Part shown: positions 33,661-38,425 of the stretch, in pieces
How the letters are laid out: every line of letters starts with the position of its first letter
Numbering within the stretch: position 1 is the first letter of the stretch
From: Escherichia phage K1G
DNA length: 43,587 bases
Sequence record: NC_027993.1
Reading direction: 5' to 3' (one strand)
Translations under genes and position numbers: made by a program
Notes under the pieces: model-generated
What the model saw: the letters and a program-made list of their open reading frames with translations, nothing else
Databases searched by the model: none
What the model was told of the DNA's origin: nothing

Positions 33661-33854
33661 TGCACCTTTATCGGGTATCTTTTGCGAAACTTACCTAACC
33701 CGCAGTATACGCTGTAAGCCTCTGTGTAACTGTACACAACATGATACCCGCGCCCGTAAGGAACTACGTTAAGAACTTCCACTACTTCGCCTCTGTGGTT
33801 GGTGTATTTATTACCTTTAAGTTCGTCGCTTACTTCTTTAAATTTACCGCTCAT
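33657..33854 (-). CDS. hypothetical protein
   Basis: 65-aa ORF, start overlaps primase-helicase stop. Confidence 0.5.
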   Translation of the reverse strand: MSGKFKEVSDELKGNKYTNHRGEVVEVLNVVPYGRGYHVVYSYTEAYSVYCGLGKFRKRYPIKVQ

Positions 33855-36118
33855 TCCAAATCCTCCTCTGTCACTGTCAGCATCTCATTCGGTTCATATA
33901 TTGTCTTCGGAATCTTGTTATCAGTTATCCGGGTGTTCAGCCTGTAACGGCCAGGGATTATCTGATTGTTTTCGTCAGTCCCCGGAACAAGATACCCAGC
34001 CTCAACCATTTTCTTAATCTTCCCGCGTTCTATGGCTTCTTTGGAGTTAAACGCCTTTGCATTGGGGTCAGACTGTGCGAGCTTATTAGCGGCGGCGACT
34101 GTGATGCCTTCGTTGCCGTTGTAGGTTCCTTCCGCCAGTTCAAACGCCGCCAGTATCGTGGCTTCTGAACTGTTGACGGCGTTCTCTATGGTTTTACGTA
34201 CGTTTTCTTTACCTTCTTTCGTCAACCCTTCTTCCCGCTCTTTCTCCTCGTCAGTCTTGAACGGCTCGAAACCCCACGGCATTAACACAAGTGCCTTATG
34301 CGGCTCCGGCAGGTCTAGGTTTACGATTGTGCCGTATTCCTCCGTGCTACCGAGGAACTCAACCGCACGGTACTCTTTCGGCGGCGGCGCTTCACGGAAC
34401 TGTACAGACTCCAGCACCATACCAACCGTCTTCTGTTGAGGCCCGTGCTTGAATTTCGAGTGGTATACATTTATCTGGCGGTCGGTAGCTCGTTCGATTG
34501 TCAGTTCCACGTCGACGCCAGCATACAGCGCCCCACTGCCACGGGCTTTCTTTCCGCCCTTCGGCGTATGGTGGACAACGCCTACCGCAGCTTTAGTCGC
34601 GTCACGTACTTCTTTCAGGATGGCGATAACCTTACCCATGCCGATTGCCGTTGATGAACTGTTCTCGTCGAACTTATCAATCGTCAGGGCTAGCGTCTGG
34701 TTGAGGGTGTCGAACGCAACCATGCCGATGGGTTCGTCACCCGCAGTTTCACGCATCAACTTAATCAGGCTTTTCAGTTTTCCGACTTCGCCCATGTCGA
34801 TGACATGTACATAATCTTTACCTTCCTCGCTATACTTAGCTGCGAGCGCATCGATACGGGTGCGTGTAGCTGCGCCGCCCTCACCGTCGATATAAAAATG
34901 GTGGCAACGCTGCGTATCTGCCCCCGCAAACCGGTATCCGGCGGCGCTCAGGTACATCATCCCCAGCGTATAGAACGATTTGTACGTGCCGGATTCCCCG
35001 ACAATATCCCAGATACAATCTGACGGCATGTACCCTTCAACGACGAAATCCGCCTTTACCGGTTCCGGTAACTCGTCATCCTCTGAGTCCTCGTCATCTT
35101 CCAGGTCGTCGAGGCTGCATGAAACAGATTCACGTGCACCCCATCCGATGGCCTCTGCGACTTCACTGAACGGCAGCCCCGTCGCATCGCACGCATACTT
35201 CCACACCTCTTTCGGTGACATGCCTTCGGTCGCCGTAATGTCAGTGTCGTGAATCATGGTTACGTTCGGCGCCTCATATCCCTCTCGCGGGAAGCACAGC
35301 AGGAAGTCATCCGGGCGCGGCGTCGGGTCGCTGTAGTTTTCTGCGTGTTCTGGCGTAGCTGGCATCTTAAGGCCTCGTGGCGTCATGATACCGCCATACT
35401 CGAACGCCAGTGCCTCGAACGCGTCGGTAAACGCGGTGCGCAGTTCTTCCGGTATCTGGTAATCCGATGCGCTGCTAACGTCAACGGCGGGGATGCCTTC
35501 CAGTAACTCGTCCGGGTCAATCAGGTCGTTGCGGCGTGACCAGATAACGGTAGAGCCAACCGGAGGCAGGTACATCGGTTGCGAAAGAGTGAACCCGCTG
35601 CGGTCAGCACCCATGCTTTTGAAGAAGTGTTCCAGCAATCCATGGCGAACACGGATGATGTCACCACCTTCGACCGGACGGGCCAGCGGCATGACGACGC
35701 GAAAGCGCGGGGACTCGTCGGTATGTGATGCCGTGGTATAGATACACATGCCCCGGCGGCTGCGTTTAACTAAGCGCACCGCTTCCTGATACTCTTCTGG
35801 TGTTGCGCTGTCGAAGTCCAGATACGCCAGCGACGATTTGCTTACAGACGCGTCACAGCGATAGAAAAAGCCTTTACGCGCTTGCTTAAAGTCGCCGGTT
35901 TCCGGGTCTTTTACAGTGCTGTGCGTCGAGTCGCACGCGGCGGTGATATAACCGGGCGCGGTCTTCGGGTTAATTCCGTCACGGACAGCATCGAGTGGCT
36001 GGATTAACTCTTTCAGGTCGTCCAGTGTTGCCGTGTGTGTGGTTCTGACGTTTATATCCTTTTTCTCAGCCCGCGCGTTGCGACGCGACCACGAGTAGGA
36101 TAAAATTACATCGGACAT
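33851..36118 (-). CDS. DNA primase/helicase (RecA-fold ATPase)
   Basis: 755 aa; Walker A-like GESGTYKSF, large N-terminal domain; RBS GAAGGAAA. Confidence 0.7.
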   Translation of the reverse strand: MSDVILSYSWSRRNARAEKKDINVRTTHTATLDDLKELIQPLDAVRDGINPKTAPGYITAACDSTHSTVKDPETGDFKQARKGFFYRCDASVSKSSLAYLDFDSATPEEYQEAVRLVKRSRRGMCIYTTASHTDESPRFRVVMPLARPVEGGDIIRVRHGLLEHFFKSMGADRSGFTLSQPMYLPPVGSTVIWSRRNDLIDPDELLEGIPAVDVSSASDYQIPEELRTAFTDAFEALAFEYGGIMTPRGLKMPATPEHAENYSDPTPRPDDFLLCFPREGYEAPNVTMIHDTDITATEGMSPKEVWKYACDATGLPFSEVAEAIGWGARESVSCSLDDLEDDEDSEDDELPEPVKADFVVEGYMPSDCIWDIVGESGTYKSFYTLGMMYLSAAGYRFAGADTQRCHHFYIDGEGGAATRTRIDALAAKYSEEGKDYVHVIDMGEVGKLKSLIKLMRETAGDEPIGMVAFDTLNQTLALTIDKFDENSSSTAIGMGKVIAILKEVRDATKAAVGVVHHTPKGGKKARGSGALYAGVDVELTIERATDRQINVYHSKFKHGPQQKTVGMVLESVQFREAPPPKEYRAVEFLGSTEEYGTIVNLDLPEPHKALVLMPWGFEPFKTDEEKEREEGLTKEGKENVRKTIENAVNSSEATILAAFELAEGTYNGNEGITVAAANKLAQSDPNAKAFNSKEAIERGKIKKMVEAGYLVPGTDENNQIIPGRYRLNTRITDNKIPKTIYEPNEMLTVTEEDLE

Positions 36119-36452: not shown

Positions 36453-36621
36453 CTTTAACGTTCTCCTTAATCCACGCCTCCACAGTAGCGCGGTCAAAGG
36501 TACCTGGCTGACGGTAGCCGTTGATAACGCGGCAACACTCCGGGAACTTTCCTGACCGAAGCCAGCGATTAAGAGTCATAGGGGAAACCCCGATTAAGTC
36601 TGCTACTTCTTTCTGTGTCAT
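36442..36621 (-). CDS. AlpA/Xis-like HTH DNA-binding protein
   Basis: MTQKEVADLIGVSPMTLNRWLRSGKFP; ATG at 36621 with RBS GAGGG (track ORF begins at TTG 36651). Confidence 0.6.
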   Translation of the reverse strand: MTQKEVADLIGVSPMTLNRWLRSGKFPECCRVINGYRQPGTFDRATVEAWIKENVKDAN

Positions 36622-36778
36622 TTTACGCGCCCTCTCTATCAAGTGAAACAACTATAACACCTACAATAGACAAACACAACCTATTGACAAAATAAAATGT
36701 AGCTGTAAAATCAACGTATCGAATGGCTTTAGTTAAGAATTACTTAGAAACAATATTCTTAAGTCTCGGGTACTTAAA

Positions 36779-36798
36779 GCCCCGCCATAAAGCGGGGC
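36779..36798 (-). promoter_or_regulatory. leader hairpin, reverse-orientation copy of the 4618-4637 hairpin
   Basis: GCCCCGC-CATAAA-GCGGGGC on + strand equals reverse complement of the spanin leader hairpin. Confidence 0.35.
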
Positions 36799-37042
36799 GC
36801 TAAATAGTACTCTTGGTAACGTTAGTATCTAAGTTTCCTCAAAGTAACAGCAAGTGGCAAGAAAGCCCCCGTCTATTTAAATTTTACCCTCCTTCATAAG
36901 CCACTGATAATTAAAAGTTTCTATAGTTGCCGTAAACGTGGAAGAGAGTACTTCACTTCGCTGGGGTGGGCTAACGCCCACCCACTGCGTTGCGTACTCT
37001 TTTAAGAAACGAAAGAATCACAACGGCAACGTAACTATTCTC

Positions 37043-37071
37043 TTGCACACCCCAACATAATAGGATACTAT
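37043..37071 (+). promoter_or_regulatory. early promoter TTGCAC-N17-TACTAT (family 2)
   Basis: cTTGCACaccccaacatAATAGGATACTATTcac. Confidence 0.5.
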
Positions 37072-37096
37072 TCACTTATCGAAACGAGACAGAGGA

Positions 37097-37297
37097 GTGA
37101 GGGTTATGTTTAAACGTGGTCAGTTGGTTAAATACTCCGACGATAAACACGGCATAATTGAATTAAAATCTGCTTTATTTCCAGGAAAGTACGTAGTTAC
37201 CGTGCAAAATGTGAGAGGAGTAAATTCACAAATATACGTAGCGGAGGAGAACTTAAAACTCATCGGCAACAATTTTAAATTTAAAGGGGGAGGGTGA
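37097..37297 (+). CDS. hypothetical early protein
   Basis: 66 aa, RBS GAGGAGTGAGGG. Confidence 0.5.
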   Translation: MRVMFKRGQLVKYSDDKHGIIELKSALFPGKYVVTVQNVRGVNSQIYVAEENLKLIGNNFKFKGGG

Positions 37298-37301
37298 AGT
37301 G

Positions 37302-37502
37302 ATGGAAGAATTATTTGAAGAACTGAAACATCATGATTTCGAGGAAATATATTTCGTAGCTGAACGCTACGAGGTGCATCTGGCGGACGGTATAACGGTT
37401 ATTACATCTACCAGCGAGCGAATGTTAAATAGCTTACGAGCAATACGAACGGCATCGAATCATGATGCTTGTGCCGACGACGCTGAGGGAGGTTGCCGTT
37501 AA
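37302..37502 (+). CDS. hypothetical early protein
   Basis: 66 aa from ATG 37302, RBS GGGGGAGGG. Confidence 0.5.
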   Translation: MEELFEELKHHDFEEIYFVAERYEVHLADGITVITSTSERMLNSLRAIRTASNHDACADDAEGGCR

Positions 37503-37705
37503 TGCGAATCCGTATAACTGACCGCAGGCTTATCCGTATAACTGACCGCAGGCTTATCCGTATAACTGACCGCAGGCTTATAGATTTCGGTATCTCGGTA
37601 GGTGATGTTTTTCCGGCGTTCAGCATCAACCATTATGGTTTTATGATTGAGTACAAAGGGTCGTTATTGTTCGTGTATCGGGATGAATGTGAGGTTCTGG
37701 TATGA
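37502..37705 (+). CDS. small protein containing three RITDRRLI repeats
   Basis: ATG overlaps upstream stop (TAATG), RBS GAGGGAGG; 3 x 24 bp tandem repeat is in frame. Confidence 0.4.
   Translation: MRIRITDRRLIRITDRRLIRITDRRLIDFGISVGDVFPAFSINHYGFMIEYKGSLLFVYRDECEVLV
37510..37581 (+). repeat. perfect tandem direct repeat, 3 x 24 bp (CCGTATAACTGACCGCAGGCTTAT)
   Basis: three identical consecutive 24-mers read directly. Confidence 0.9.
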
Positions 37706-37857
37706 GAGAAGCATTTGAACGGTGGGCTGTGGTCGAGGGTCTGCCGGTTAACAAGGGTTCAAAGAAAGAGTACCTGAACGTTAAGACGCGTCTCGCGTGG
37801 CGGGCGTGGAAAGCTGGTGTGCAATCCTTGATTGAAAGAGGTGTGAGGTATGGGTGA
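37702..37857 (+). CDS. small hypothetical protein (51 aa)
   Basis: ATGA overlap with upstream gene; sequence MREAFERWAVVEGLPVNKGSKKEYLNVKTRLAWRAWKAG... Confidence 0.4.
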   Translation: MREAFERWAVVEGLPVNKGSKKEYLNVKTRLAWRAWKAGVQSLIERGVRYG

Positions 37858-38050
37858 GTGGATTAAGTGTAGTGAGATGCTGCCGGGTAATGGGTATACG
37901 GATAAAGAGTTCCTGGTGTATGAAACGTTAAATAACGCAGTTCAGCACGATTATTACATAGTTCCTGATGACGGGAGAAAGCCTTTCTGGAATCACTACG
38001 ATAAGTACGTGACGCACTGGATGCCGTTACCCGAGCCGCCAGAAGTGTGA
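37850..38050 (+). CDS. DUF551-like protein
   Basis: N-terminus MGEWIKCSEMLPGNG resembles DUF551 proteins (W-I...LP motif). Confidence 0.5.
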   Translation: MGEWIKCSEMLPGNGYTDKEFLVYETLNNAVQHDYYIVPDDGRKPFWNHYDKYVTHWMPLPEPPEV

Positions 38051-38184
38051 TGTTCAATAGTTTGGGATTTTACTGAGTGACTTACGCTGCTACACAGCAG
38101 CGTACAACTTTAACTTAGTGTCGTCAAAAGGCGACACTTTCATCAAACGCAACAATCGAAGCGACTATTGCAGGAGATGCAACA

Positions 38185-38358
38185 ATGATTACTAAAGAAC
38201 AGGCTGAACGACTAATCACGTTAATCGACACGATGGTTGATGCGAAAACCGATTTAGCAACGGCAACAGAGGAATCCGCTACCTGGTCGCTTGAAGAAAG
38301 AGAAGCAGAAGCGGAAAGGGAGTTACTGGCGTTCATCGACTCTATAACACACCAATAA
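38185..38358 (+). CDS. small acidic hypothetical protein (57 aa)
   Basis: RBS AGGAG 10 nt upstream of ATG. Confidence 0.45.
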   Translation: MITKEQAERLITLIDTMVDAKTDLATATEESATWSLEEREAEAERELLAFIDSITHQ

Positions 38359-38365
38359 AATTTAC

Positions 38366-38394
38366 TTGCACACTAAGATAGAATAGGCTACTAT
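38366..38394 (+). promoter_or_regulatory. early promoter TTGCAC-N17-TACTAT (family 2)
   Basis: cTTGCACactaagatagAATAGGCTACTATTcat. Confidence 0.5.
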
Positions 38395-38425
38395 TCATTT
38401 ACACAAACGAGAGGAGAGACGGAAG

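What the first reader, a model, noticed from the sequence alone, without database searches (positions are those of the whole stretch)
37510..37581. Perfect 3 x 24 bp tandem direct repeat inside a small early ORF
Three identical consecutive copies of CCGTATAACTGACCGCAGGCTTAT lie in frame within ORF 37502..37705, encoding RITDRRLI three times. Perfect identity suggests recent expansion or selection at the DNA level. Such arrays can be iteron-like binding sites (for example a replication origin or partition site) or a slippage-prone copy-number-variable locus.
Basis: seen in the sequence. Interest (0 to 1): 0.5.

Follow-up and report, generated by a model that had tools for sequence, protein, structure and literature searches.

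The report
Copy-number-variable coding repeat in phage gene
The perfect 3 x 24 bp repeat is real, but it is a recent in-frame triplication of the first eight-residue segment of a tiny, conserved phage protein of unknown function, its copy number differs (1, 2 or 3) among close relatives, and nothing supports a replication-origin or partition role.

Summary
Three identical 24-bp units lie at 37510-37581, in frame in ORF 37502-37705. The window is a Kagunavirus (K1H/K1ind-like lytic siphovirus).

The ancestral and commonest form of the gene encodes 51 aa with one unit. It is predicted with high confidence (pLDDT 96) to be a small SH3-like beta-barrel. The unit encodes part of strand 1 and the start of the only helix.

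Close relatives carry 1, 2 or 3 units. Four multi-copy array states exist (A-A, G-A, A-A-A, G-G-A), differing by one Ile/Val base change. These states occur on flanks that are under 1% diverged and on more than one gene background. Copy number therefore changes repeatedly and quickly, as expected for slippage or unequal recombination. In the 3-copy protein only the last copy is built into the fold. The two extra copies form a basic, low-confidence N-terminal tail.

The iteron/origin/partition reading is not supported:
- Most relatives have one copy, and many lack most of the unit.
- The array does not co-vary with the helicase-primase.
- The unit has no dyad symmetry, no adjacent AT-rich stretch, no nearby DnaA boxes and no other copies in the genome.
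- It forms no DNA or RNA structure beyond chance.

This is an ordinary coding minisatellite, useful mainly as a typing marker.

The parts
37510..37581 (+). Perfect 3 x 24 bp tandem array (unit CCGTATAACTGACCGCAGGCTTAT; TRF phase 37508-37581)
   Evidence: (family D1): 100% identity, spacing 24 and 24, TRF score 148.
37510..37557 (+). The two extra units (codons 4-19), absent from the ancestral 51-aa form. They encode a basic, low-confidence N-terminal tail.
   Evidence: One-copy homologues P0002, P0005, P0007, P0009, P0028 and loci L007-L010, L016-L019. In the AF2 model of the 67-aa protein, residues 1-11 have pLDDT below 50 and the block 11-20 averages 73.
37558..37581 (+). Last unit (codons 20-27), the copy built into the predicted fold (end of strand 1, turn, first turn of the helix)
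   Evidence: AF2 gives strand 18-21 and helix 24-29 in the 3-copy protein. This matches strand 2-5 and helix 8-13 in the 1-copy protein, shifted by 16 residues.
37502..37705 (+). Small ORF (67 aa here, 51 aa ancestrally) encoding an SH3-like small beta-barrel of unknown function (PHROG 30395)
37488..37492 (+). Shine-Dalgarno GGAGG, 9 nt upstream of the ATG at 37502
   Evidence: Read directly from the sequence and conserved in relatives ('up20' strings).
37508..37509 (+). AT dinucleotide that precedes the array and also ends each unit: 2-bp microhomology at the duplication boundary
   Evidence: 3.1 copies. The one-copy sequence ATGCGAAT|CCGT...CTTAT|AGATTTC is shown.

Best explanation
The array is a coding minisatellite. 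A 24-bp stretch at the 5' end of a small conserved phage gene was duplicated in tandem and then triplicated by replication slippage or unequal recombination between the units. The gene is translated. Its ancestral 51-aa product is a single SH3-like beta-barrel, and the unit encodes RITDRRLI (end of strand 1, a turn, the start of the only helix). Because the unit is 8 codons long and lies at the extreme N-terminus, extra copies keep the frame. The copy next to the rest of the domain completes the fold, and the others hang off as a basic tail (+2 net charge per unit). That is why they are tolerated. Once two identical units exist the locus is unstable, so copy number drifts between 1, 2 and 3 among otherwise near-identical phages. 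Shown: the array, the coding frame, the one-copy ancestral form, copy-number polymorphism on near-identical flanks, and the predicted fold. Inferred: the slippage mechanism, near-neutrality of the extra copies, and early expression.
For: (1) Copy number. One-copy 51-aa forms are found in many phages and contigs. Two-copy forms occur in K1ind2/3, fKuEco01, fTaEco01/03, MirsaeidiM_Esher4, UTI89UKE1, one IMG/VR contig and 5 metagenome contigs, and in protein-cluster members seen on 93 and 126 contigs. Three-copy forms occur only in the window, K1H and UTI-CM001. None has more than three.
(2) Four multi-copy array states (A-A, G-A, A-A-A, G-G-A) need at least one duplication, one A>G substitution and two separate 2-to-3 expansions.
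(3) States do not follow the flanks. The window's 400 bp upstream are identical to UTI-CM001 (G-G-A). Its 700 bp downstream are identical to K1H (A-A-A) and 0.4% from one-copy phage G. A one-copy form exists on the 'FPAFSIN' background (P0028) and a two-copy form on the 'FLAFSSN' background (P0036).
(4) Coding. There is a Shine-Dalgarno, and the start and stop overlap the neighbouring ORFs. Synonymous third-position changes occur inside the unit in one-copy relatives (ATC>ATT, CGT>CGA). Divergent homologues at 35-59% identity keep the same architecture. The profile search finds only small phage-type proteins apart from one 3,334-aa protein (P0021), which was not examined.
(5) Structure. The one-copy form has pLDDT 96.3. 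In the 3-copy form the last copy forms the strand and helix and the N-terminus is disordered. The fold is SH3-like.
(6) Units are bounded by an AT/AT microhomology.
Against: No reads or passage data were available, so slippage itself and within-lysate heterogeneity are not shown. Two-copy forms are at least as common in assemblies as one-copy forms on the same background, so the first duplication might be favoured rather than neutral. AF2 cannot say whether the extra copies compete for the strand-1 position or drive oligomerisation. The array lies about 500 bp from the cumulative GC-skew minimum and next to the replication genes. A DNA-level role in this sub-lineage is therefore not formally excluded.
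Confidence: 0.8

Rival explanations
1. Adaptive protein-level repeat. The extra RITDRRLI units are selected because the arginine-rich N-terminal tail, or competing copies of strand 1 that allow strand swapping and oligomerisation, changes how the small SH3-like protein engages its target. Under this reading copy-number change acts as a tunable contingency locus.
For: Two-copy alleles are abundant (members on 93 and 126 contigs). The only substitution inside arrays is conservative (Ile>Val). Most family members are 58-65 aa with an 8-15-residue loop between strand 1 and the helix that the 51-aa allele lacks, so length at this position is clearly variable in the family. Each unit adds +2 charge.
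Against: The protein's function and partner are unknown: no Pfam or NCBIfam hit, and the PHROG has unknown function. The tail has low model confidence. There is no visible correlation of copy number with host type. K1-dependent K1H has 3 copies, phage G (isolated on a K1 host) has 1, and K1ind2/3 have 2. All states are equally well explained by drift at an unstable locus.
Confidence: 0.13
2. DNA-level binding array. The units are iterons of a replication origin, as in lambda where ori lies inside gene O, or another protein-binding array that happens to lie inside a gene.
For: The units are perfectly identical. The array lies about 1.4 kb from the helicase-primase gene and about 500 bp from the cumulative GC-skew minimum at about 37,000. 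Iterons inside a coding gene have a precedent in lambda (established knowledge).
Against: One copy is the ancestral and most frequent state. Allele-B phages such as ST20 keep only the first 12 bases of the unit, yet their helicase-primase is about 91% identical in nucleotide sequence to the window's. Conversely, UTI-CM001 and fKuEco01 carry the array with a helicase-primase N-terminal region so different that blastn finds no match. The unit has no dyad symmetry beyond shuffles (6 of 12 pairs against a mean of 6.2). The array and its flanks have GC 0.40-0.52, while the AT-rich stretch is 800 bp away at 36620-36780. No DnaA box with up to 1 mismatch lies within 36-38 kb. No other copy with up to 5 mismatches exists on either strand. 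The GC-skew switch coincides with the switch of transcription direction, which explains it. The junction base differs (A or G) between lineages.
Confidence: 0.04
3. Partition (centromere-like) site of a plasmid-prophage.
For: Only the tandem-repeat appearance supports it.
Against: The window's closest relatives are Kagunavirus. The group is described as strictly lytic (PMC11641727). The region has no match in 5,426 complete E. coli genomes or their plasmids. Relatives have one copy.
Confidence: 0.01

Closest known systems
In-frame coding minisatellites / VNTRs generated by slipped-strand mispairing (as used for typing bacteria and large DNA viruses)
   Same: Identical head-to-tail units. The unit length is a multiple of three. 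The reading frame is preserved. Copy number differs among near-identical genomes. A single-copy progenitor sequence is found in relatives.
   Different: The array is very short (at most 3 units seen). It sits at the extreme N-terminus of a 51-aa globular domain and duplicates real secondary-structure elements rather than a low-complexity linker. No frameshift switching is possible.
Lambda-type origin iterons inside a coding gene (ori-lambda in gene O)
   Same: Direct repeats of about 20 bp with roughly 24-bp spacing lying in frame inside a gene near the replication genes.
   Different: Lambda iterons are imperfect and internally symmetric. They are conserved in number, lie inside the initiator's own gene and are followed by an AT-rich region. 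Here the units are perfect (recent) and asymmetric, are absent or single in most relatives, and lie in a gene for an SH3-like protein with no AT-rich flank.
FeoA / DtxR C-terminal SH3-like domains (Pfam PF04023)
   Same: A small SH3-like barrel with a short helix after the first strand. The G-x-x-x-G-D turn motif (FGISVGD) resembles the FeoA 'LG(l)xpG' turn (from memory). Depositors of fTaEco01 and fTaEco03 report HHpred probability of about 96 to an archaeal FeoA. ScaR and FeoA 3e19 appear among the Foldseek hits.
   Different: There is no Pfam or NCBIfam match even at permissive thresholds. Fold scores are equally good or better for generic SH3, SH3b, Hfq and integrase C-terminal domains. 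No link to iron transport is apparent.

Membership tests
Coding minisatellite / in-frame tandem duplication (slippage VNTR) | Head-to-tail identical units | tested here: met
   3 x 24 bp at 100% identity.
Coding minisatellite / in-frame tandem duplication (slippage VNTR) | Unit length divisible by three, inside a genuine translated ORF that stays open | tested here: met
   24 bp equals 8 codons. The ORF has a Shine-Dalgarno, overlapping start and stop with its neighbours, conserved homologues, synonymous variation and a confident fold. Translation itself was not measured.
Coding minisatellite / in-frame tandem duplication (slippage VNTR) | Copy number polymorphic among close relatives, with a single-copy progenitor | tested here: met
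   1, 2 and 3 copies occur, with flanks 0-1% diverged between different states.
Coding minisatellite / in-frame tandem duplication (slippage VNTR) | Copy-number change observed within a population or on passage | not testable with these tools
   This needs sequencing reads of a lysate or a passage experiment.
Replication-origin iterons | Several copies conserved among relatives that share the replication module | tested here: not met
   Most relatives have one copy, and allele-B phages lack the unit beyond 12 bases although the helicase-primase is about 90-92% identical.
Replication-origin iterons | Iteron sequence co-varies with the initiator protein | tested here: not met
   The same unit is found with the K1G/K1H-type helicase-primase and with the UTI-CM001/fKuEco01-type, whose N-terminal region gives no blastn match.
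Replication-origin iterons | Adjacent AT-rich unwinding region and/or host-factor (DnaA) boxes | tested here: not met
   GC is 0.40-0.52 in and beside the array, and the AT-rich stretch lies at 36620-36780. No DnaA box with up to 1 mismatch lies in 36-38 kb.
Replication-origin iterons | Protein binding and origin activity | not testable with these tools
   This needs EMSA or ChIP, marker-frequency analysis or ori cloning.
Partition site (parS-like centromere) | Plasmid-prophage lifestyle with a partition system | tested here: not met
   The group is described as strictly lytic (PMC11641727). The region has no match in E. coli chromosomes or plasmids. No systematic scan for ParA/ParB genes was run.
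FeoA family (PF04023), for the encoded protein | Sequence match to the family model above its threshold | tested here: not met
   No Pfam hit at E up to 1 and no NCBIfam hit at E up to 10. A profile search of PDB sequences finds no FeoA.
FeoA family (PF04023), for the encoded protein | SH3-like barrel fold closest to FeoA/DtxR-C domains | tested here: inconclusive

The most novel reading that the evidence does not exclude
The array is a small contingency locus. Gain and loss of RITDRRLI units lengthens or shortens an arginine-rich N-terminal tail, or supplies competing strand-1 copies that promote strand-swapped oligomers, on an early SH3-like host-takeover or anti-defence protein. Copy number would then be selected differently on different hosts.
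Probability: 0.1. Interest if true: 0.5.

Novelty: new member of a known kind. Interest (0 to 1): 0.2.

Why it matters
The practical value is modest. The locus is a ready-made length marker (153, 177 or 201 bp ORF) for telling apart otherwise near-identical therapeutic K1-type Kagunavirus phages and for monitoring stock stability. It shows that the K1H and K1ind records leave a block of real small genes unannotated. It is a clean natural example of a globular mini-domain tolerating tandem duplication of its first strand and helix start. It does not identify the replication origin of these phages.

Tried and rejected
- Origin or iteron: rejected on distribution, lack of co-variation with the helicase-primase, no dyad symmetry, no AT-rich flank and no DnaA boxes.
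- DnaA-like box at the unit junction: TTATCCGTA matches TTATCCACA at 7 of 9 positions. It is two mismatches off in the critical CACA part, exists only at A-type junctions, and becomes TTGTCCGTA in the commoner G-A arrays. Boxes with up to 1 mismatch occur at chance frequency genome-wide (10 found, 7.5 expected).
- RNA or DNA secondary structure of the array: z = +1.1 (RNA) and +0.8 (DNA), no better than shuffles.
- Known RNA family: no Rfam hit in the whole window.
- Dispersed copies of the unit: none with up to 5 mismatches on either strand.
- Reverse-strand ORFs across the array (37408-37629 and 37499-37633, minus strand): they exist only because the repeat lacks stops. After collapse to one copy, two of the three reverse frames and both other forward frames contain stops, and the remaining reverse frame has no support beyond the absence of stops.
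- An 11-nt exact inverted match between the unit junction (37530-37540, 37554-37564) and 37895-37905: about chance level for a 2.2-kb region.
- Prophage or plasmid origin: no match in complete E. coli genomes.
- FeoA membership: not confirmed.
- afdb50 fold search: the library was unavailable.
- Literature searches for Kagunavirus with FeoA, and for Guernseyvirinae origins of replication, gave nothing relevant.
- Identity of the window as phage K1G: suspected from memory of its genome length, but not verifiable here (one search found no length or accession).

Full report
**Observation.** The window reads CCGTATAACTGACCGCAGGCTTAT three times without interruption at 37510-37581. Tandem Repeats Finder gives period 24, 3.1 copies, 100% matches and score 148. 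No other array in the window scores above 37. The chance of a perfect 3 x 24 array in 43.6 kb of random sequence is about 5e-25. The array lies in ORF 37502-37705 on the plus strand, which encodes 67 aa: MRI(RITDRRLI)x3DFGISVGDVFPAFSINHYGFMIEYKGSLLFVYRDECEVLV. GGAGG lies 9 nt upstream of the ATG. The ATG overlaps the stop of the upstream ORF (TAATG), and the stop overlaps the next start (ATGA).

**What the genome is.** The closest records are Escherichia phages K1ind2/3 and K1H (genus Kagunavirus, Guernseyvirinae) at 97-98% identity over 36600-38400. There is no match in 5,426 complete E. coli genomes. The group is described as strictly lytic (PMC11641727). From memory the window length matches phage K1G, but I could not verify this.

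**Local layout.**
- The helicase-primase gene (33851-36118) and two small genes, one an HTH protein (Pfam HTH_17), run leftward.
- An intergenic region at 36652-37096 contains a near-consensus sigma-70 promoter-like site pointing rightward (TTGACA, 16 nt, TAAAAT at 36684-36711).
- From 37097 a string of tightly packed small ORFs runs rightward. The repeat-bearing ORF is the third.
- The K1H and K1ind records annotate none of these small ORFs. Later records annotate all of them.

**The gene without the repeat.** A search of 5.8 billion proteins returned 13 homologues. Most are 51 aa, MRIRITDRRLIDFGISVGD..., with a single RITDRRLI. More distant relatives of 58-65 aa begin MRIRITD and then carry an 8-15-residue loop (for example VDYVLPPDYGDPSLR) before the conserved FG(I/V)SVGD. 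An exhaustive profile search of 1.84 billion representatives found 12 proteins. Eleven are small and of this type. The twelfth (P0021, 3,334 aa) was not examined. The family matches PHROG 30395, which has unknown function, and no Pfam or NCBIfam model.

Coding status rests on several lines. Among nine distinct one-copy-collapsed alleles there are 6 synonymous and 5 non-synonymous changes. These include two synonymous third-position changes inside the unit itself. The other two forward frames and two of the three reverse frames contain stops.

**Copy number in relatives.**

| Copies | Where found |
|---|---|
| 3 | window (A-A-A), K1H (A-A-A), UTI-CM001 (G-G-A) |
| 2 | fKuEco01, fTaEco03 and one metagenome contig (A-A); K1ind2, K1ind3, fTaEco01, MirsaeidiM_Esher4, UTI89UKE1, one IMG/VR contig and four metagenome contigs (G-A) |
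| 1 | phiEc3, NTEC3, LF7074P1, EC3-1, phage G AB-2017 and three IMG/VR contigs, read directly; about a dozen more inferred from match spans |

'G' is an A>G change at unit position 23, which converts Ile to Val. In the protein cluster, two-copy members were seen on 93 and 126 contigs, and a one-copy member on the same 'FPAFSIN' background on 19 contigs. No array longer than three units was found in IMG/VR, JGI metagenomes or the phage collection.

**Dynamics.** The four multi-copy states need at least one duplication, one point change and two independent 2-to-3 expansions. States do not follow the flanks:
- The window's upstream 400 bp are identical to UTI-CM001 (G-G-A).
- Its downstream 700 bp are identical to K1H (A-A-A).
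- That downstream stretch is only 0.4% from one-copy phage G.
- A two-copy array also exists on the other gene background (P0036), and a one-copy form on the 'FPAFSIN' background (P0028).

So copy number changes at least as fast as point substitutions accumulate in about 1 kb of flank. This is the signature of an unstable tandem repeat. The units are bounded by an AT/AT microhomology.

**Effect on the protein.** In the AF2 model of the 67-aa protein, the last unit supplies strand 18-21 and helix 24-29. These are the same elements as residues 2-5 and 8-13 of the 51-aa form. Residues 1-11 have pLDDT below 50. Extra units therefore add a basic N-terminal tail (+2 charge per unit) without disturbing the domain. 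This explains why they are tolerated. Whether they also do something is unknown.

**Test of the iteron, origin and partition reading.** The idea was worth testing. The cumulative GC-skew minimum lies at about 37,000 and the replication genes are adjacent. But the skew switch coincides with the switch in transcription direction, and every specific expectation fails:
- One copy is the ancestral and commonest state.
- Allele-B phages such as ST20 keep only the first 12 bases of the unit, while their helicase-primase is about 91% identical to the window's.
- UTI-CM001 and fKuEco01 carry the array with a helicase-primase N-terminal region that gives no blastn match to the window's.
- The unit has no dyad symmetry beyond shuffles.
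- The array and its flanks are not AT-rich, and the AT-rich stretch lies at 36620-36780.
- No DnaA box lies nearby.
- No other copies exist in the genome.
- There is no DNA or RNA structure beyond chance and no Rfam family.
- A partition site is implausible in a strictly lytic phage.

If the origin is in this neighbourhood, the intergenic region 36652-37096 is the better candidate. That was not tested.

**Verdict.** The feature is real and statistically unambiguous. It is best explained as a recent, unstable, in-frame triplication of the first eight-residue structural segment of a small SH3-like early protein (confidence about 0.8). A selected protein-level role for the extra units remains possible (about 0.13). 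A DNA-binding-array role is unlikely (about 0.04). It is a new instance of a well-known kind of variation, so interest is low.

Noticed in passing
window 36652-37096: This is a divergent intergenic region between the leftward replication/HTH genes and the rightward small-ORF string. It holds a near-consensus sigma-70 promoter-like site (TTGACA, 16 nt, TAAAAT at 36684-36711, plus strand) and the most AT-rich stretch of the neighbourhood (36620-36780, GC 0.31-0.34). It also holds two GC-rich hairpins: GCCCCGC/GCGGGGC at 36779-36798 and GGGTGGGC/GCCCACCC at 36964-36983. The cumulative GC-skew minimum of the genome (about 37,000) lies here. It is a better candidate than the repeat for regulatory or origin functions.
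   Followed up: partly
window 37502-37521 versus 37522 onward; L020 (ST20) 1555-1746: A sharp mosaic boundary lies inside the gene. The end of the upstream ORF plus the first 7 codons (MRIRITD, through the first 12 bases of the unit) are about 90-95% identical in many Kagunavirus phages. After that point these phages switch to a divergent allele, MRIRITD-VDY...-FG(I/V)SVGDEFE, of 60-65 aa.
   Followed up: partly
window about 36650-38100; K1H, K1ind2 and K1ind3 records (L001, L002, L013): The closest GenBank records annotate no genes at all across this roughly 1.5-2 kb block. Newer relatives annotate 6-7 small ORFs here, including the repeat-bearing gene and a DUF551 protein (window 37850-38050, Pfam E = 6e-12). 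The exact 3-copy A-A-A protein is absent from the 15-billion-protein collection.
   Followed up: yes
L003 (UTI-CM001) 1-527 and L004 (fKuEco01) 1-543 versus window 35592-36118: The N-terminal part of the helicase-primase gene in these phages gives no blastn match to the window's. The genes to the right of the intergenic region are 97-99% identical. The replication module and the small-ORF module are therefore exchanged independently.
   Followed up: partly
L010 (EC3-1) 620-690; also L008, L009 and protein P0008: Some one-copy relatives carry about 64 extra bases just upstream of the gene. These encode a short hydrophobic peptide (MNNYPFILI(V/I)SAVYV...) that gene callers sometimes fuse to the SH3-like ORF.
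   Followed up: no
window 37530-37540 and 37554-37564 versus 37895-37905: The unit junction TTATCCGTATA has an exact 11-nt inverted match inside the DUF551 gene. This is about what chance gives in a 2.2-kb region. The junction also resembles a DnaA box at 7 of 9 positions, but the resemblance is lost in G-type junctions.
   Followed up: yes
protein P0021: A 3,334-aa protein matched the family profile in six short stretches (best stretch at profile positions 15-41, E = 3e-7). This probably reflects a repeated G-x-S-V-G-D-like motif. It was not examined.
   Followed up: no
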